The notes under the pieces are model-generated. The model was not told the origin of the DNA and searched no databases. It saw nothing but the letters and a program-made list of their open reading frames with translations. Of a DNA stretch of 64,000 nt, positions 11,378 to 39,422 are shown piece by piece (the stretch's first letter is position 1; each line of letters begins with the position of its first letter). Source of the stretch: Enterobacter phage CC31; the sequence record NC_014662.1. One strand, written 5' to 3'. The translations under genes and the position numbers were made by a program.

Positions 11378-11404
11378 GAAAAAGCAAAAGGAGCCTTCGG
11401 GCTC
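11378..11404 (-). terminator. intrinsic terminator after hoc (minus strand)
   Basis: GGAGCC-CGAA-GGCTCC on minus strand followed by TTTTGCTTTTT. Confidence 0.7.
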
Positions 11405-11407
11405 CTT

Positions 11408-12106
11408 TTAATAGATGATACCAGCTTCTAAAGCTGAACGATGAACAATACGTCCATTACGTGATTCTTGAACATCAACTTCAGGGTAGTCTTCAATCAT
11501 TTTAGCTAACGTAGCCAAATGACAGTAATAAGGAGTATCAGAAGCGGTTGCAGTTTTCCAGTCTTTACCTTCTTCAGTAAGTTTCTGAATTGCATCCATA
11601 ACCCACCAACCAGCCCAGATATAAGCACTAGAGCGATGCGGAAGTGGATGAACATAGAGAATTGGGCATTCGTCTGGAACAACTGGCTCGGCAGCTTCAA
11701 CTGTAATATTCAGCACATTTGAAGTTTTAACAGTGTCTTCGTATCCAGTTGCTTTAGCAGTTACTTCACATGTTAAAGCAACATTTCCTTCCGTTTGAGC
11801 TACTGCACTAATATCAGCCGTAGTTTCTCCGGTTGACCATTTGTAAGCAAGAGTTGCTCCTGATGGTTGACCTGTTACTCCACAGGTTGCACTATAGCTT
11901 TCACCAACTTTAACAGTTTGAGACTGAGCTGAAATAGTAACAGTAAGATTCATAACGTCATTTACTGTTAAGTTAGTAGTTGCGGTTTGAATATCGTCTG
12001 GGTCTTCACCAGCTTTAGTGGTTGAAGTAACTTTAACTACTTTAGTTCCAGCCGAGTCAGCGGTGTAATCCAAAGTATCAGTCACAGATGATTGTACTAC
12101 AACCAT
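11408..12106 (-). CDS. hoc: outer capsid decoration protein Hoc, main reading frame (232 codons)
   Basis: Ig-like repeats plus C-terminal capsid-binding block PLPHRSSAYIW.GWWVMD...YPEVDVQESRNG matching recalled T4 Hoc; the true N-terminus lies in another frame (next feature). Confidence 0.8.
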   Translation of the reverse strand: MVVVQSSVTDTLDYTADSAGTKVVKVTSTTKAGEDPDDIQTATTNLTVNDVMNLTVTISAQSQTVKVGESYSATCGVTGQPSGATLAYKWSTGETTADISAVAQTEGNVALTCEVTAKATGYEDTVKTSNVLNITVEAAEPVVPDECPILYVHPLPHRSSAYIWAGWWVMDAIQKLTEEGKDWKTATASDTPYYCHLATLAKMIEDYPEVDVQESRNGRIVHRSALEAGIIY

Positions 12107-31008: not shown

Positions 31009-31036
31009 ACAAAAAAGGGACTCCCGAAGGAGTCCC
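31009..31036 (-). terminator. intrinsic terminator (minus strand)
   Basis: GGGACTCC-TTCG-GGAGTCCC on minus strand followed by TTTTTTGTTT. Confidence 0.65.
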
Positions 31037-34611: not shown

Positions 34612-35498
34612 CAGAAATCTCCATGAGCAACTTGCCAGCATTCAACACCGATACGACGCCACATTTCAACTACTTGTGCTCGGTCATCTACTGCAAGCTT
34701 AATGTTATAATGAGGAGCAATATCGCGCCAGAAGATTTCTTCTTTTACGATATCATCTTTACGAGAATCGCCCTGCTTACGCTGCCAATGCCCATGAGTT
34801 TCACCGACATGGTCTAATACCCATTTCTGAGTCATGCGACGATAAACAGTTTCATCTTCTTTTGTACCAGATTCGCGCCCAGATACAGTAAGAATTTTAA
34901 ACCCTTTCTGCCGAAGCATTTTCAGGAGTTCAATAACCATTTCTTTTGGAGCATCTTCAGCACATTTATCAAGGTCAAATGGTGAACGATGATGGTTATC
35001 TGCAAGAGTTCCATCAAGGTCAAAGATAACCGCTTTTGGCTTAGACAAATCAGGAACGTAAACTTTCTCAACTTCCATCAGTGTATAAAAATGGCGCAGA
35101 ACATCAATCGGGACTGCTTTATCGCCACGATATTGGTTGCGCTTAACCAGTTCAGTCCAAGGAACATGGAAGTCCTGGAAAGACATTTCATACAGACCTT
35201 TGAAACGAAGTTCCCATTTCTCGACGGTTTTAGGGTTCAAGTTAGTGTCGCAGACTATAACACCTTTGGTGTGTTCAAGGTCAAGCAGAGACACTGCAGC
35301 AGAAATTTGAGCAGCTGTTACTGCACGCTCTTTATGCTTAGAATATTTGTAAGCATTGCGAGCATCAAGGCCAAACAGCTTTTCACGGAAATCATCACGA
35401 GACAGAATGTACCAACCAGGATTTTTAGCGACATATTCATTTGCCCAAGTTGACTTTCCACAACCTGGAGCACCGCGAGTCAAAATAATCTTTTTCAT
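34611..35498 (-). CDS. pseT: polynucleotide 5'-kinase / 3'-phosphatase
   Basis: Walker A GAPGCGKST, HAD motif DLDGTLA, C-terminus RRIGVECWQVAHGDF match recalled T4 Pnk. Confidence 0.9.
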   Translation of the reverse strand: MKKIILTRGAPGCGKSTWANEYVAKNPGWYILSRDDFREKLFGLDARNAYKYSKHKERAVTAAQISAAVSLLDLEHTKGVIVCDTNLNPKTVEKWELRFKGLYEMSFQDFHVPWTELVKRNQYRGDKAVPIDVLRHFYTLMEVEKVYVPDLSKPKAVIFDLDGTLADNHHRSPFDLDKCAEDAPKEMVIELLKMLRQKGFKILTVSGRESGTKEDETVYRRMTQKWVLDHVGETHGHWQRKQGDSRKDDIVKEEIFWRDIAPHYNIKLAVDDRAQVVEMWRRIGVECWQVAHGDF

Positions 35499-35833
35499 TC
35501 AAGTTCCTTTACGAAGTTATCAACATCAGCCTTAGCTTTATTATAATCAGCTAGAGTTTTAGCTAACCATTCTTCTTTGCGGCCTTTAAGCAAAGCAGAC
35601 AAATATGAACCCTGAGCAAATAGCTGTGTAGTCATTAAATTTGACATAACATTTGCTAGTTCTGGCGCTTTAGCTTTTACGGCGCGTCGTAAATTTGCTC
35701 CAGCTTCGTCTAAGTCTCTGGCGATGTTTTCAAGTTCTTGTTCTGCGCGAACTGAACCATCATCTACACGAAGTCCATACGAATAAGCATATGAAGCTTT
35801 GCGGTATTTTTCGAGTAGAATTTTAATGGACAT
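35495..35833 (-). CDS. hypothetical protein
   Basis: ORF, start uncertain. Confidence 0.5.
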   Translation of the reverse strand: MSIKILLEKYRKASYAYSYGLRVDDGSVRAEQELENIARDLDEAGANLRRAVKAKAPELANVMSNLMTTQLFAQGSYLSALLKGRKEEWLAKTLADYNKAKADVDNFVKELE

Positions 35834-36038
35834 TAGCAATTTCCTCAATAATGACGTTTACACGCGCAGTAGCTTCATCGTATCGAGCTTTAGCTTGCAT
35901 TGTTTCTACAACAAGGTCTTCGTAAGTCAAATAACCGTCTTCCATTTGCATACGAGTTTTAGCTGAACCATAGTCAATTGCGCGAGCCTTAAGTTCAGAG
36001 ATAGCGCCTTCAAGAGCCATTTTAGCAAATTTGTTCAT
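35823..36038 (-). CDS. hypothetical protein
   Basis: 71 aa ORF. Confidence 0.5.
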   Translation of the reverse strand: MNKFAKMALEGAISELKARAIDYGSAKTRMQMEDGYLTYEDLVVETMQAKARYDEATARVNVIIEEIANVH

Positions 36039-36514
36039 AGTCCAAGTGCCTCATATAATGATTTACGAATATCACGAACATCTTTACCTGCTGGTCGCAT
36101 TGAACCCTCGACATCCGAAATAAATCCGTTTGCACAATTGGATTTAATTTGCCCGTAAATTGAAGCTGCTTCAATAAGCTTGTCAATCAAATCACGTTTA
36201 TAGTCTTCTTCCATGCGAATGCCATACCATTCATCGTAATCTTCAACAGGAGCAAATATTTTGAACCAAGTTTCTTCTGAAATATAAGTTTGTTCTTTGA
36301 GCTTAAAGACATGAGATGGAATAGTTTCAGTTCCAGGAGCGAATACTCTCACAGAAACTACAGTAGGCTTTCCACCAATAATTTCAAACCAGGGACTCAC
36401 AGTAGCTTTACGCATCAATGGAGTTTTGTGACGGGCACCCTGCATACACAATTTGCGTAGCTGGGTCTTTTTAATTGCAGATAAGAATGAGCCATCTTTT
36501 ACAAAATAACGCAT
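36035..36514 (-). CDS. hypothetical protein
   Basis: Trimmed to MRYFVK; the longer ORF-track N-terminus would read through an intergenic UUCG hairpin. Confidence 0.55.
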   Translation of the reverse strand: MRYFVKDGSFLSAIKKTQLRKLCMQGARHKTPLMRKATVSPWFEIIGGKPTVVSVRVFAPGTETIPSHVFKLKEQTYISEETWFKIFAPVEDYDEWYGIRMEEDYKRDLIDKLIEAASIYGQIKSNCANGFISDVEGSMRPAGKDVRDIRKSLYEALGL

Positions 36515-36565
36515 ATTATTTTCCTCAAAGTTTATTATCCCGATGAGGCCCGAAGGCCTCAATTA

Positions 36566-36661
36566 AAACGTAACTACCATTGCAAGAGCTACGGAACATG
36601 CAACTGCAGCGATGAACAGACCGAAACAAAACAGCTTTGCACCTAACGTGAATTTACGCAT
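36566..36661 (-). CDS. small hydrophobic peptide (31 aa), not in ORF track
   Basis: MRKFTLGAKLFCFGLFIAAVACSVALAMVVTF with AAAGGA ribosome-binding site 8 nt upstream. Confidence 0.4.
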
Positions 36662-36945
36662 TTTGGTTCCTTTAATTCGTAGCGATAGTAACATATCATA
36701 CCATTAGCATCTTTGGTATAACGAAGAACATCATTTAACCAAATTCTAAACTCCTGAGAATCAGAATAAGGCATTCCCACGAATGGACGACCATCAACTT
36801 CAACGATAGTCCAATGCCCGTTCCAAGGCTTGATTTGGTCAGGCCAAGATGGATGCACTACCGTTGGCTGGGGTAACTCTGGTGTCTTCTGGGAACATCC
36901 AGCCAATAGTCCAATTGATAATACAGTGGCTACTAAGAGTTTCAC
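36643..36945 (-). CDS. outer-membrane spanin lipoprotein (Rz1-like; T4 pseT.2 position)
   Basis: Signal peptide with LLAGC lipobox, proline-rich mature part; ATGA overlap with the i-spanin gene. Confidence 0.7.
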   Translation of the reverse strand: MKLLVATVLSIGLLAGCSQKTPELPQPTVVHPSWPDQIKPWNGHWTIVEVDGRPFVGMPYSDSQEFRIWLNDVLRYTKDANGMICYYRYELKEPKCVNSR

Positions 36946-37298
36946 TTGGTGGCCTCCTGAAACTCTAGAGTCAATTTGTTGAAAGACTCATTTAACTGCT
37001 TTTCAACCAGCTTAGGCTTAGCTTTGACCACATGCTCACGCTTGGCATCTTTAGCCATTTTAGCGTCAGACTTATCAGCCTCTGCTCTGTTTTCTTTACG
37101 AGTCTCATCATACTTATTGAGATTCACAAAGTCTGTTTTTAACTTTTCAATAGCTTTGCCATTAGCTTCAGCTATTTGTTGCATTTGCTTAAGGTCTTCT
37201 TTTAAGCCATCAATCCGTGAAGATTGATATTGAATGAACCCATAAGCTGTTAATCCGAGCGCCACTAAAATGACGTGGATGTTTGTTATTTTGAACAT
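36942..37298 (-). CDS. inner-membrane spanin (Rz-like; T4 pseT.3 position)
   Basis: N-terminal TM helix (ITNIHVILVALGLTAYGFI) followed by charged coiled-coil region. Confidence 0.7.
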   Translation of the reverse strand: MFKITNIHVILVALGLTAYGFIQYQSSRIDGLKEDLKQMQQIAEANGKAIEKLKTDFVNLNKYDETRKENRAEADKSDAKMAKDAKREHVVKAKPKLVEKQLNESFNKLTLEFQEATK

Positions 37299-37792
37299 AA
37301 TTTGATGATTGCCTGTACAATATCGTCCTGAGAAAGACCATTGATAAGAATATGATGTTCAGCAGGAGAGTTTTGAATTTTGAAGCAAGGGTCCACCATC
37401 TCTGCCATTTCTGAAGCAGAAAGACGAGGATTTGAAACACCCAGACGATGCTTTCCATAGATTGGGTCTACGATGATGTAGCACTTACAACCATTTACAT
37501 GAACGTTTGGTTGGGAAATGTTAATCATCACTTCTGCGCCGTACTTGGTCAGATGATTATCTAAGAAGCTGCGCATTTCTTCTACTGCTTCAGGCATCTT
37601 CTCAGCACGTTCTTCATTTACCCGATTGCTGTATTCTTTACGAGCCTTTTGACGCTTTTGGTCGCGAGAGTAAGCTACACGTAAATCAGTGATGTAACCC
37701 AGAGGACGAGAATTTTTGAAAATACGAATCCCGTCATGGTGTGTACCTTCGTAAATTTCTACTAGCTCTTCGGCAGTGATTAAGTTCAGCAT
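37286..37792 (-). CDS. alc: Alc-like protein (transcription termination on dC-DNA), by position
   Basis: 168 aa at the T4 alc position between spanins and rnlA; early promoter upstream; sequence identity not verified. Confidence 0.55.
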   Translation of the reverse strand: MLNLITAEELVEIYEGTHHDGIRIFKNSRPLGYITDLRVAYSRDQKRQKARKEYSNRVNEERAEKMPEAVEEMRSFLDNHLTKYGAEVMINISQPNVHVNGCKCYIIVDPIYGKHRLGVSNPRLSASEMAEMVDPCFKIQNSPAEHHILINGLSQDDIVQAIIKLCSK

Positions 37793-37822
37793 TTCGTTTT
37801 CTCCATTTGGTTAGTGTAGAGA

Positions 37823-37853
37823 CATAGTAACACAATCAAATGGAGATGTAAAC
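37823..37853 (-). promoter_or_regulatory. early promoter upstream of alc
   Basis: Family member. Confidence 0.6.
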
Positions 37854-37855
37854 GG

Positions 37856-38986
37856 TTAGATGTACTCAGCCGGAGTGAATGGCTTTGTGTTCTTCAAGAA
37901 TGCACAGTTGAGCTTGGTGATGAGCTGGTCGTCATCAAGGTCTCCTGCATACATTTTCATGATGATACCGAAAACTTGAGGTAGACCGGCCAATGCGGTT
38001 TCAGCTTGAGCGTTTGCTGCGTAAGACTTACGGTCTTTACCACGATGAGTAGCATAGAAGTCCTGGCACAGCTTAAGAGAAGAACGCAGATAGTTCAAGT
38101 ACTGAGTTTCGAAAGCATTGATTTTACCCAACGCAAACTCGTCAGAATCGAACATACCACGAAGGTCATCTGCCGCGTTATTCACGATGCACTCAAACAG
38201 ACGCTCGTTGTTGATAATGGAGTCTTTGGTGTGGTGCAGAGCCGTGTACCATTCGGTTTTCAGCTTAAAGCGTAAACCATCTTCCATAACCATCACGTAA
38301 CCTTCGATTTGCTCTTCAGCTCGAAGCTTGGAAACAAAATCACCTTTAGGAACTTCAAAGGCTTCTACCAGATACTTACGAAAAACTGGATGAGCCAGAA
38401 GGTCTTCGTAGTCAACATACTCACCAGTATCGTTTTCACGAACGTTCAGAAGAACAAGCATCTTTTTAGGATAGCTCAGAACAATTCGGTTCTGCGGAGA
38501 GCAGTATTCGAAGTTAGCGGTGAAGCCATCTTTTGCTAAATCAATCAGAGCTTCAGCCAAATCCAAATGCTCAATACTTGCCAGCATTGCAGAAGCTTCA
38601 ACAGCCTGCTCAGATTTGATAGAAGTCTTAGACTTAAAGCGAATACGATTTTCGCCGTCTAGATAAGTAGAAACCAAAGAACCATCTTCTTTAGCCAGCA
38701 TGTACTTAACTTTGGAAAGGTCTAGATTCATTGTGAACGGAGTTTCATTCAGGTTGAAGAACTTTTCCATTGGACGAGATGCAATACGCACTGGGATGTC
38801 ATCAACATCAAGTTCAAACATGATGCCACGGCACTCTAATGCAGACGGCAGAAGCCAGTCAGAGTAAGATGCGTAATGGTAAGAAAACGTGCGGTATTTG
38901 TACCCCATTGGAGATACATCATCACGGTAGAAGAAACGAGTTTCATCGTTACATAGAGTCATGAGCTCATTGAATAATTTTTTCAC
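37856..38986 (-). CDS. rnlA: RNA ligase 1
   Basis: 376 aa; blocks RIASRPMEKFFNLNE, KEDGSLVSTYLDG, GFTANFE match recalled T4 Rnl1. Confidence 0.9.
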   Translation of the reverse strand: MKKLFNELMTLCNDETRFFYRDDVSPMGYKYRTFSYHYASYSDWLLPSALECRGIMFELDVDDIPVRIASRPMEKFFNLNETPFTMNLDLSKVKYMLAKEDGSLVSTYLDGENRIRFKSKTSIKSEQAVEASAMLASIEHLDLAEALIDLAKDGFTANFEYCSPQNRIVLSYPKKMLVLLNVRENDTGEYVDYEDLLAHPVFRKYLVEAFEVPKGDFVSKLRAEEQIEGYVMVMEDGLRFKLKTEWYTALHHTKDSIINNERLFECIVNNAADDLRGMFDSDEFALGKINAFETQYLNYLRSSLKLCQDFYATHRGKDRKSYAANAQAETALAGLPQVFGIIMKMYAGDLDDDQLITKLNCAFLKNTKPFTPAEYI

Positions 38987-39396
38987 TTTTTACCCTTATG
39001 TTGAGTATTCCACGGAGGATTGAATTTTTTGATGAACATCGGTTCTTCAAGGTCCATCGTTGAGATTGACATTTCACCGAGTTCGTTGTTTATCAGGAGA
39101 TTAAAGCACTGTCGAGCATAAAAGCTAACAGTCTTTCCTGACATCAGAGCATCGTAAATCTTAGCTGACTTAGTTGAGTCTGACGTCTGGTCTTTGCGAT
39201 TAATCGCTGTCCTGTAATAATTTATTCTCTTTCTGAGATTCTTGGTCTTACCGATGTAGACCAACTCATCATCAACTGCAATTGCATATACCACGTTCAA
39301 CTTGTTTGGAACTTGGACTTGGTCTATAGTGCAATCAGGTAGCAGCTTCAGTTGAGTGTATTCTATAAAAGAAAACTCGTTAGCAATATCTTTCAT
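38983..39396 (-). CDS. denA: endonuclease II (GIY-YIG family)
   Basis: 137 aa; VVYAIAVDDELVYIGKTKNLRKRINYYR GIY-YIG motif and near-identity to recalled T4 DenA. Confidence 0.85.
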   Translation of the reverse strand: MKDIANEFSFIEYTQLKLLPDCTIDQVQVPNKLNVVYAIAVDDELVYIGKTKNLRKRINYYRTAINRKDQTSDSTKSAKIYDALMSGKTVSFYARQCFNLLINNELGEMSISTMDLEEPMFIKKFNPPWNTQHKGKK

Positions 39397-39422
39397 AACA
39401 GAAGGGCCCGAAGGCCCTCTCC

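What the first reader, a model, noticed from the sequence alone, without database searches (positions are those of the whole stretch)
36566..37298. Separated spanin pair plus an adjacent 31-aa hydrophobic peptide
An inner-membrane spanin (N-terminal TM helix plus coiled coil) and an outer-membrane lipoprotein spanin (LLAGC lipobox) are encoded in the separated architecture with an ATGA overlap. Immediately downstream a 31-codon ORF with its own ribosome-binding site encodes a single-TM peptide, which may be an unannotated membrane factor.
Basis: partly seen in the sequence, partly recalled or inferred. Interest (0 to 1): 0.35.

Follow-up and report, generated by a model that had tools for sequence, protein, structure and literature searches.

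The report
T4-type spanins plus conserved tiny membrane peptide
This stretch of Enterobacter phage CC31 holds the already catalogued T4-type gene pair that breaks the host outer membrane, followed by a real, conserved and already annotated 32-residue membrane peptide whose function is unknown.

Summary
On the minus strand lie an i-spanin (36942-37298) and an o-spanin (36643-36945). They are homologues of T4 PseT.3 and PseT.2.

The window is phage CC31. Its spanins are already listed in the T4 "separated" spanin families of Kongari et al. 2018.

- The start/stop overlap is GTGA, not ATGA.
- The small ORF (36563-36661) has 32 codons, not 31.
- It overlaps the o-spanin 3' end by 19 nt rather than lying downstream of it.
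- It is not unannotated: it is CC31p227, a member of PHROG 26334.

The small ORF is a real gene. It is intact in every Karamvirus and Kanagawavirus locus I translated, and in Winklervirus. Between genera, synonymous sites are near saturation (pS 0.89) while replacement sites are not (pN 0.17). It is predicted to be one transmembrane helix.

Beyond the finding, seven Tevenvirinae genera carry short one-helix ORFs in the slot between the o-spanin stop and a C(UUCG)G hairpin. These ORFs fall into at least three families with no recognisable similarity. T4 has none. That could mean a link to the cell envelope or to lysis, but nothing here shows it.

Overall: known spanins, plus a genuine small membrane protein of unknown function. 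Interest is low to moderate.

The parts
36942..37298 (-). i-spanin gene (homologue of T4 PseT.3), 118 aa. It has an N-terminal transmembrane helix at about residues 4-22, a long periplasmic helix with five heptads (29-63), a conserved K94-P95 break, and a second helix.
   Evidence: (phrog_739, E 5e-36)
36643..36945 (-). o-spanin gene (homologue of T4 PseT.2), 100 aa, with a GTG start. The lipobox is LLAG|C17 and residue +2 is Ser. The periplasmic cysteines C85 and C96 are conserved.
   Evidence: (phrog_812, E 2e-40); PMC6139136
36942..36945 (-). GTGA junction: the o-spanin GTG start overlaps the i-spanin TGA stop, indicating translational coupling. This is the 'separated' gene architecture.
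36953..36958 (-). AGGAGG ribosome-binding site of the o-spanin, 7 nt upstream of the GTG.
   Evidence: (read from the sequence)
36563..36661 (-). Small ORF CC31p227, 32 aa: MRKFTLGAKLFCFGLFIAAVACSVALAMVVTF. It has a basic N-terminus followed by a 23-residue hydrophobic helix. It overlaps the o-spanin 3' end by 19 nt in the -1 frame.
   Evidence: (phrog_26334, E 7e-23)
36668..36672 (-). AAGGA ribosome-binding site of the small ORF, 6 nt before its ATG. It lies inside the o-spanin codons for the conserved LKEPK motif.
   Evidence: (conserved upstream string in 10 loci)
36544..36561 (-). C(UUCG)G hairpin with a 7-bp stem (UGAGGCC-UUCG-GGCCUCA), starting 1 nt after the small ORF's stop codon. It closes the alc-spanin-small ORF gene block. 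The stem co-varies between genera.
37286..37792 (-). alc (inhibitor of host transcription), the upstream gene of the same block. It overlaps the i-spanin start by 13 nt.
   Evidence: PF17527, E 6e-53
37824..37852 (-). Sigma-70-type promoter-like site (TTTACA, 17-nt spacer, TG-TACTAT) upstream of alc. It is a candidate early promoter for the block. This is a consensus match only.

Best explanation
The window comes from Enterobacter phage CC31 (Karamvirus, a T4-like phage). The region is one minus-strand gene block: alc, i-spanin, o-spanin, small ORF, hairpin.

The spanins. The two larger genes are the T4 PseT.3/PseT.2-type two-component spanin. By homology to the T4 proteins:
- The i-spanin sits in the inner membrane through its N-terminal helix and extends a coiled-coil into the periplasm.
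- The o-spanin is lipidated on Cys17 and sorted to the outer membrane.
- The two bind through their periplasmic ends.
- The o-spanin's two C-terminal cysteines form intermolecular disulfides.
- Once the endolysin has removed the cell wall, the complex disrupts the outer membrane, probably by fusing it with the inner membrane.

The small ORF. It is a genuine, translated gene.
- It encodes a 32-residue single-pass inner-membrane peptide. Its basic N-terminus should face the cytoplasm, and it has no periplasmic domain.
- It is probably made by ribosomes coupled to o-spanin translation. It has its own AAGGA site, and its start lies inside the o-spanin's last codons.
- Most likely it is a dispensable accessory peptide that acts within the inner membrane. 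It is one of several unrelated small peptides that different Tevenvirinae genera carry in this slot, not a core spanin subunit.

Shown here: homology, anatomy, conservation, purifying selection and distribution.
Inferred: topology, translational coupling, co-transcription, and any function of the peptide.
For: Identity of the window:
- The exact peptide is CC31p227.
- An IMG/VR contig of 165,540 bp has a 99% identical o-spanin and an identical small-ORF DNA sequence.

Spanins:
- PHROG Rz-like spanin families match at E 5e-36 and 2e-40.
- tblastn finds the o-spanin in 1,324 phage records, including T4 and RB32 pseT.2 at 57.6% identity.
- G16, C17, C85 and C96 are invariant.
- Kongari et al. 2018 list CC31 in the T4 i- and o-spanin families. 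They also show that T4 PseT.3/PseT.2 complement lambda Rz/Rz1 and need both cysteines.
- The helix and heptad structure fits.

Small ORF:
- It is intact in the 10 Karamvirus and 3 Kanagawavirus phage records I translated, and in the IMG/VR contigs of both genera.
- A homologue with a GTG start lies in the same position in Winklervirus, where it is not annotated.
- Karamvirus versus Kanagawavirus gives pS 0.89 and pN 0.17 in the part that overlaps no other gene.
- The ribosome-binding site is conserved.
- A single helix is predicted.

Dispensability and variable slot content.
Against: - No experiment bears on the small peptide, so its function is a guess.
- The positional pattern could mean a real tie to spanin or envelope function rather than a passenger gene. 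Short one-helix ORFs of at least three families without recognisable similarity are coupled to the o-spanin stop in seven genera. No other convincing small membrane ORF exists elsewhere in this 64-kb window.
- Co-transcription rests on a consensus promoter match and a hairpin. There are no transcript data.
- No T4-type late promoter (TATAAATA) lies near the block, so the timing of expression is unknown.
Confidence: 0.85

Rival explanations
1. The small peptide is a previously unrecognised accessory of envelope disruption or lysis control. It would be co-produced with the spanins and act in the inner membrane on the i-spanin anchor, the holin, or a host envelope protein. The short one-helix ORFs that other Tevenvirinae genera carry in the same slot would be functional analogues.
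For: - The slot between the o-spanin stop and the hairpin holds short one-helix ORFs in Karam-, Kanagawa-, Winkler-, Moon-, Gelderland-, Teguna- and Dhakavirus. They fall into at least three families without recognisable similarity and with different charge layouts.
- All are in the -1 frame, with starts on or just before the o-spanin stop.
- Families A, B and D are under purifying selection, for example pS 0.89-0.96 against pN 0.32-0.33 for Moonvirus versus Gelderlandvirus. Family C was not tested.
- In each phage record the tblastn hit is a single place next to the spanin.
- Small membrane ORFs are otherwise rare in this window.
- There is precedent. The 65-aa membrane protein Lcc6 is required for lysis by Shewanella phage LambdaSo (bioRxiv 10.1101/2024.01.23.576932).
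Against: - T4, Mosigvirus and Jiaodavirus have no such ORF.
- The T4 spanins alone replace lambda Rz/Rz1.
- One Kanagawavirus-like contig lacks the ORF cleanly.
- The only distant relative found in 1.84 billion proteins sits after a terminase gene, not next to a spanin.
- The pseT.2-pseT interval varies in gene content between genera.
- Slopek-, Krisch- and Chrysonvirus have none.
Confidence: 0.2
2. The small ORF encodes a tiny lipoprotein, or a mimic of a lipoprotein signal peptide. It has a basic N-region, a hydrophobic core and a lipobox-like AAVA|C22. Cleavage would leave an 11-residue lipopeptide, or the peptide could compete for the host lipoprotein-processing enzymes that mature the o-spanin.
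For: - The peptide fits the PROSITE lipoprotein pattern at Cys22, with K/R among the first seven residues.
- A cysteine at this position with A at -1 is kept in Karamvirus (VAC), Kanagawavirus (VAC) and contig L026 (LAC).
Against: - Cys22 is replaced by T or I in the Winklervirus members and is absent from the distant 30-aa relative.
- The residues after Cys22 are wholly hydrophobic and continue the predicted helix to residue 31. Cys22 therefore sits mid-membrane rather than at the periplasmic face.
Confidence: 0.05
3. The ORF's amino-acid sequence does not matter. On this reading it is a chance or purely regulatory reading frame, whose translation only carries ribosomes to the hairpin or sets expression of the downstream 159-aa gene. 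Alternatively it is joined to the o-spanin by a -1 frameshift to give a protein anchored in both membranes, like a unimolecular spanin.
For: - The stop codon lies 1 nt from the hairpin in all genera.
- The ORF is in the -1 frame of the o-spanin.
- T-rich sequence readily yields hydrophobic ORFs.
Against: - Replacement changes are strongly suppressed relative to synonymous ones.
- The N-terminal motif TLGAxLF is kept across three genera and in the distant hit.
- It has its own conserved ribosome-binding site and start codon.
- Reading the junction sequence, I find no X-XXY-YYZ slippery heptamer.
- In a fusion, the basic residues would precede the helix on the periplasmic side, against the positive-inside rule.
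Confidence: 0.05

Closest known systems
Phage T4 PseT.3/PseT.2 two-component spanin ('separated' class; Kongari et al. 2018, PMC6139136)
   Same: - Sequence homologues: o-spanin 57.6% identical, i-spanin about 27% with an invariant C-terminal KPxLVExQxNxSF block.
- Same gene order alc, i-spanin, o-spanin.
- Same 4-nt start/stop overlap.
- Same N-terminal membrane helix plus two-helix periplasmic domain.
- Same lipobox.
- Same two essential periplasmic cysteines.
- CC31 itself is listed as a member.
   Different: - The o-spanin starts with GTG rather than ATG.
- It has a C-terminal tail three residues longer than T4's (VNSR versus K).
- A 32-aa membrane-peptide gene is overprinted on its last 19 nt.
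- T4 has pseT.1, a soluble 76-aa protein, in that place.
Lambda Rz/Rz1 spanin
   Same: - Same two-component logic: an inner-membrane subunit plus an outer-membrane lipoprotein.
- The T4 homologues replace it functionally.
   Different: - No sequence similarity.
- Rz1 is embedded within Rz in the +1 frame, whereas here the genes are separate.
- Lambda Rz1 is unstructured and proline-rich. The T4-type o-spanin is larger and predicted to be structured.
PHROG 26334 (CC31p227, PG7 gp201, CIP9_047): hypothetical 32-aa phage proteins
   Same: The small ORF is a full-length member (E 7e-23, profile positions 1-32 of 32; exact match to CC31p227).
   Different: - The family has no assigned function.
- This work adds unannotated Winklervirus members that fall below the PHROG threshold.
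- It also adds one distant 30-aa relative in an uncultured phage.
Small single-helix phage lysis accessories, such as Lcc6 of Shewanella phage LambdaSo (65 aa) and the Mu releasin
   Same: They are short phage-encoded inner-membrane proteins that standard lysis-gene annotation missed. Lcc6 is required for lysis.
   Different: - No sequence similarity was tested or claimed.
- Lcc6 is twice as long, has a 43-residue cytoplasmic tail, and is encoded far from the lysis genes.
- The CC31 peptide has essentially no extramembrane part, and no phenotype is known.
Slot ORFs of other Tevenvirinae (Dhakavirus PHROG 23289; unannotated 22-25-aa ORFs of Moon-, Gelderland- and Tegunavirus)
   Same: - Same position, frame and coupling to the o-spanin stop.
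- Same size class, with one hydrophobic helix.
- The Moon-/Gelderland- and Dhakavirus families are under purifying selection, as this ORF is; the Tegunavirus family was not tested.
   Different: - No recognisable sequence similarity.
- The charges lie at the C-terminus (YKxIKL motif) or as an acidic N-terminus, predicting the opposite membrane orientation.

Membership tests
T4 PseT.3-type i-spanin | Sequence homology to the family | tested here: met
   phrog_739 'Rz-like spanin' matches at E 5e-36 over the full length. In the alignment with RB32 PseT.3 and four other genera, the C-terminal block is invariant. CC31 is listed in the family.
T4 PseT.3-type i-spanin | N-terminal transmembrane domain | tested here: met
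   Residues 4-22 have a mean hydropathy of 1.79 and lie within the predicted helix. No dedicated topology predictor was available.
T4 PseT.3-type i-spanin | Helical periplasmic domain with coiled-coil propensity in the first helix and a short linker | tested here: met
   AlphaFold2 predicts helices 6-93 and 95-117 at pLDDT 82. Residues 29-63 form five heptads with 80% strongly hydrophobic a/d positions against 8% elsewhere. This matches the published description.
T4 PseT.2-type o-spanin | Outer-membrane lipoprotein signal: lipobox with Cys, and no Asp at +2 | tested here: met
   TVLSIGLLAGC fits the PROSITE pattern with Cys17. Residue +2 is Ser, read from the sequence. The +2 sorting rule is from established knowledge.
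T4 PseT.2-type o-spanin | Sequence homology and the two conserved periplasmic cysteines | tested here: met
   phrog_812 matches at E 2e-40. Identity to T4/RB32 pseT.2 is 57.6% at E 7e-29. C85 and C96 are invariant and correspond to T4 C87 and C98, which are essential.
Two-component spanin, 'separated' architecture | The o-spanin gene is not embedded in or substantially overlapping the i-spanin gene (an 8-bp overlap still counts as separated) | tested here: met
   The overlap is 4 nt, GTGA. The criterion is from PMC6139136.
Two-component spanin | Required for outer-membrane disruption; complements Rz/Rz1 defects | not testable with these tools
   This has been shown only for the T4 homologues.
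PHROG 26334 (small ORF) | Full-length profile match | tested here: met
   E 7e-23, residues 1-32 on profile positions 1-32 of 32. The sequence is identical to CC31p227.
Bacterial lipoprotein (small ORF) | A lipobox cysteine conserved across the family | tested here: not met
   The pattern fits at Cys22 in CC31. That position is T or I in the Winklervirus members, and the distant relative has no cysteine.
Unimolecular spanin (o-spanin and small ORF fused by frameshift) | One polypeptide with an N-terminal lipoprotein signal and a C-terminal membrane helix oriented periplasm-to-cytoplasm | tested here: not met
   The two are separate ORFs, and the small ORF has its own ribosome-binding site and start codon. 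I found no slippery heptamer on reading the junction. The basic residues precede the helix rather than following it.
Holin or antiholin (small ORF) | At least one membrane helix plus a charged cytoplasmic C-terminal tail; typically 60 aa or more | tested here: not met
   The peptide is 32 aa, ends inside the hydrophobic stretch and has no charged residue after K9. The size and tail criteria come from general knowledge of holin classes.

The most novel reading that the evidence does not exclude
Tevenvirinae phages may have repeatedly recruited unrelated tiny single-helix peptides to one slot. That slot is translationally coupled to the o-spanin stop codon. On this reading, a small inner-membrane partner tunes spanin or holin action, for example by holding the spanin complex in check or by setting lysis timing on particular hosts. 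CC31p227 would then be one member of a convergent, unrecognised class of lysis accessories that T4 itself happens to lack.
Probability: 0.18. Interest if true: 0.6.

Novelty: already known. Interest (0 to 1): 0.25.

Why it matters
The spanin pair adds nothing new. CC31's genes are already in the published T4 spanin families.

The small peptide matters only modestly on its own. It is a real 32-residue membrane protein under purifying selection, of the kind gene callers often miss. It is unannotated in Winklervirus, and several Karamvirus records omit it or annotate a different ORF in its place.

The comparative pattern is the useful lead. Seven T4-like genera place short one-helix ORFs, from at least three families without recognisable similarity, on the o-spanin stop codon. 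The best-studied phage, T4, has none, which would explain why the slot has never been examined.

If these peptides affect lysis or the envelope, they would add a component to a system regarded as complete. If they do not, they are a clear example of repeated small-gene gain at one permissive site.

Tried and rejected
- I used the full HMMER scan of 1.84 billion representatives instead. It found only 3 clusters.
- Pfam gave nothing above threshold for either spanin or for the peptide, only weak coiled-coil noise.
- Neither spanin has a solved-structure relative in the PDB by profile search.
- Rfam found nothing credible in 35000-39000.
- Seven phage records matched only residues 1-17 of the peptide, which looked like frameshifts. 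The two I translated (UFV01 and ZX13) are intact. I attribute the short match to BLAST's low-complexity masking of the AAVVVF-type tail. The other five were not checked.
- Two Salmonella P22-like hits (E 0.3) lie antisense to an annotated ORF and are chance matches.
- The longer 43-aa start at 36694 is rejected. The upstream extension is not kept in Pet-CM3-4, Kanagawavirus or Winklervirus, whereas the 32-aa start and its ribosome-binding site are.
- The lipoprotein and frameshift-fusion readings were considered and set aside; see the rival explanations.
- I looked for a T4 late promoter (TATAAATA) near the block and found none.
- Slopek-, Krisch- and Chrysonvirus have no comparable slot ORF.
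Full report
**What is there**

All genes in 34.6-40.6 kb of the window are on the minus strand, in T4 order: nrdB, denA, rnlA, alc, two small genes, then a variable stretch and pseT. The nearest deposited genomes are Karamvirus phages, led by KaAlpha at 97% nucleotide identity with about 25 more at 90-92%.

The small peptide is identical to "hypothetical protein CC31p227" of Enterobacter phage CC31. An IMG/VR contig of CC31's length (165,540 bp) carries a 99% identical o-spanin and an identical small-ORF DNA sequence. The window is therefore CC31 or a near-identical isolate.

**The spanin pair**

ORF 36942-37298 (118 aa) matches PHROG 739 "Rz-like spanin" over its full length at E 5e-36.
- Its N-terminus is hydrophobic at residues 4-22.
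- AlphaFold2, run on a six-genus alignment, predicts two helices, 6-93 and 95-117, broken at a conserved Lys-Pro, with mean pLDDT 82.
- Residues 29-63 form five clean heptads.
- This agrees with the published description of T4 PseT.3 (PMC6139136).

ORF 36643-36945 (100 aa) matches PHROG 812 at E 2e-40.
- It is 57.6% identical to T4-type PseT.2.
- Its signal peptide ends in LLAG|C17, which fits the PROSITE lipoprotein pattern, and Ser follows the cysteine.
- Cysteines C85 and C96 are invariant across six genera. They correspond to T4 C87 and C98, both shown to be required for lysis.

The same paper shows that T4 PseT.3/PseT.2 complement lambda Rz/Rz1. It counts overlaps of up to 8 bp as "separated". 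[quoted passage not shown] So the spanin part of the finding is correct and already in the literature.

One detail is wrong. The o-spanin starts with GTG, so the junction is GTGA. This holds for the Karamvirus loci examined and for Winklervirus, while most other genera have ATGA. No solved structure exists for either subunit.

**The small ORF**

It runs from 36661 to 36563 and has 32 codons plus a stop: MRKFTLGAKLFCFGLFIAAVACSVALAMVVTF.
- Its ATG lies 19 nt inside the o-spanin gene in the -1 frame. It is formed by the Lys-Cys codons of the o-spanin's conserved C-terminal cysteine.
- An AAGGA ribosome-binding site lies 6 nt upstream.
- Three basic residues are followed by 23 uncharged hydrophobic residues.
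- AlphaFold2 predicts one helix, residues 4-31, at pLDDT 86.
- By the positive-inside rule the N-terminus should face the cytoplasm. This is an inference.

It is not unannotated. It is CC31p227. It is also annotated as a hypothetical protein in PG7, KaAlpha, ZX13, myPSH1140, CIP9 and Kosakonia phage 305, and it forms PHROG 26334. Other records omit it (UFV01, Entb_43, ZX14) or annotate a different ORF in its place (RZH).

**Is it a real gene?**

tblastn finds it in 42 T4-like phage records, once per genome and always at the o-spanin's end. It translates intact in the 10 Karamvirus and 3 Kanagawavirus phage records I read, and in further IMG/VR contigs of both genera.

Seven records matched only residues 1-17. 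The two I checked are intact. I attribute the short match to BLAST's low-complexity masking of the alanine/valine-rich tail.

A homologue with a GTG start sits at the same place in Winklervirus, where nobody has annotated it: MKSNLTLGATLFCAGLVLALLVTVIVFAFVLVV.

In the part of the ORF that overlaps no other gene, Karamvirus versus Kanagawavirus shows 17 of 19 synonymous sites changed (pS 0.89) but pN of only 0.17. Comparisons with the Winklervirus lineage give dN/dS of 0.1-0.3 from Kanagawavirus or contig L026, and 0.71 from CC31 itself. Ten alignment columns are invariant, among them T5, L6, A8, L10, F11, C12, G14 and L15, and G7 is kept in nine of ten sequences.

The family is very small: a profile search of 1.84 billion cluster representatives returned three clusters. 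The third is a 30-aa peptide in an uncultured phage. It lies after a terminase gene, not next to a spanin.

**The lipoprotein idea**

The peptide fits the lipoprotein pattern at Cys22, and that cysteine is kept in Karamvirus, Kanagawavirus and one other lineage. It is T or I in Winklervirus and absent from the distant relative. Cys22 also lies in the middle of the predicted helix. I consider this reading unlikely.

**The gene block**

- alc, the i-spanin, the o-spanin and the small ORF overlap each other by 13, 4 and 19 nt.
- A sigma-70-type promoter-like site lies upstream of alc.
- No T4-type late promoter is near.
- One nucleotide after the small ORF's stop codon begins a 7-bp C(UUCG)G hairpin, at 36544-36561.
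- The window holds twelve such hairpins. From my own knowledge, this matches the stable CUUCGG hairpins described between T4 cistrons.
- The stem co-varies between genera: GAGGCC/GGCCUC, GAGGGC/GCCCUC, AGAGCC/GGCUCU and AAGGGC/GCCCUU.
- A widely conserved gene of about 160 aa and unknown function follows the hairpin (PHROG 4482).

**The slot in other phages (beyond the finding)**

I fetched 36 IMG/VR loci with an o-spanin alignment and read the sequence after each o-spanin. The interval between the o-spanin stop and the hairpin holds a short one-helix ORF in seven Tevenvirinae genera. The ORFs fall into at least three groups.

| Family | Genera | Length | Features | Phage-record evidence |
|---|---|---|---|---|
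| A (this one) | Karam-, Kanagawa-, Winklervirus | 32-33 aa | basic N-terminus | 42 records, Karam- and Kanagawavirus; Winklervirus found by direct reading |
| B | Moon-, Gelderlandvirus | 22-25 aa | MDPLVVLI...YKxxKL | 16 records |
| C | Tegunavirus | 25 aa | MFMNTIIFIAILVFLYKIIKLILQS; shares a C-terminal YKxIKL-like motif with B | 6 records |
| D | Dhakavirus | 34-37 aa | acidic N-terminus, cysteine-rich; PHROG 23289 | 87 records |

- One contig, L026, carries an A member and a C-like member in tandem.
- All are in the -1 frame, with starts on or just before the o-spanin stop.
- Families B and D also show pS well above pN.
- Each family occurs once per genome, at this site.

By contrast, T4-type (Tequatrovirus), Mosigvirus and Jiaodavirus go straight from pseT.2 into pseT.1. 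A Kanagawavirus-like contig (L043) has the hairpin directly after the o-spanin stop. Slopek-, Krisch- and Chrysonvirus have nothing comparable.

Within this 64-kb window, no other convincing small membrane ORF lies outside long ORFs. The pattern is therefore not a general property of the genome.

**How it most likely works**

The spanin mechanism is taken over from the T4 and lambda work by homology.

The peptide is real, membrane-embedded, and probably made in step with the o-spanin. Because T4 spanins work without it, and because it can be cleanly absent, I treat it as a dispensable accessory. It probably acts inside the inner membrane on an unknown partner.

The recurrence of unrelated peptides in this one slot leaves a real possibility, which I put near 20%, that they modulate spanin or holin action or some envelope process. 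The 65-aa Lcc6 of Shewanella phage LambdaSo shows that small membrane proteins can be overlooked lysis factors, but it is only an analogy.

**Verdict**

The features themselves are already known and annotated. The slot pattern is a modest comparative lead worth one knockout experiment.

Noticed in passing
window 36035-36514 (-): A 159-aa ORF directly after the hairpin belongs to PHROG 4482 (E 4e-63), has no Pfam match and has no known function. Homologues follow the same hairpin or slot in Karam-, Kanagawa-, Winkler-, Moon-, Gelderland-, Teguna- and Dhakavirus, and in Jiaodavirus-like contigs that lack a slot ORF.
   Followed up: partly
L014:1784-1885 (Kosakonia phage Kc304); L052 about 1479-1556 (Yersinia phage TG1); L054 about 1467-1538 (Salmonella phage SEA1); JS98 and JS10 records: Conserved short one-helix ORFs on the o-spanin stop codon are missing from these GenBank annotations. 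They are apparently too short for the gene callers used.
   Followed up: yes
L003:1104-1319 (UFV01), L052:1339-1488 (TG1), L007:1104-1313 (ZX14): In these relatives the o-spanin is annotated from an internal ATG, which removes the signal peptide and lipobox. In myPSH1140 (L009) it is not annotated at all. The true GTG or ATG start overlaps the i-spanin stop.
   Followed up: partly
L010:1333-1437 (Enterobacter phage RZH): This record annotates a 34-aa ORF in another frame across the hairpin region instead of the conserved 32-aa ORF at 1301-1399.
   Followed up: no
window, 12 sites, e.g. 39403-39418 (-), 31017-31036 (-), 11386-11409 (+): There are twelve C(UUCG)G hairpins with stems of 5-10 bp in 64 kb, mostly between genes. 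One lies just upstream of denA. They resemble the stable CUUCGG hairpins known from T4.
   Followed up: partly
L026:2787-2956 (IMG/VR contig of 175,437 bp): Two small membrane ORFs lie in tandem after the o-spanin: a family A member followed, across an ATGA overlap, by a 24-aa ORF ending in AYKAIKLILKS, like the Tegunavirus family. The hairpin follows.
   Followed up: partly
L053:about 1596-1625 and other Dhakavirus loci: In Dhakavirus the slot ORF is followed not by a UUCG hairpin but by GTTTACA, a 17-nt spacer and TATAAT. This is a near-consensus T4-early-type promoter in front of the 160-aa gene.
   Followed up: no
L043:2760-2840 (IMG/VR contig of 177,643 bp): This is a Kanagawavirus-like locus in which the o-spanin stop is followed immediately by the hairpin. 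It is either a clean loss of the 32-aa ORF or the state before its gain.
   Followed up: partly
window 35495-36038 (-): Two further small ORFs (71 aa, PHROG 26735; 112-117 aa, PHROG 15029) lie between the 159-aa gene and pseT. They replace T4's pseT.1, and the interval differs in content between genera.
   Followed up: no
L055:3001-3093 (Logan SRR34488295 contig): A 30-aa peptide, MRYTLGAKLFIAGVALALVAITVALYVVVN, shares the TLGAKLF motif with the CC31 peptide (E 1.5e-4 against the whole library). It lies after a terminase large subunit gene in an unrelated uncultured phage.
   Followed up: partly
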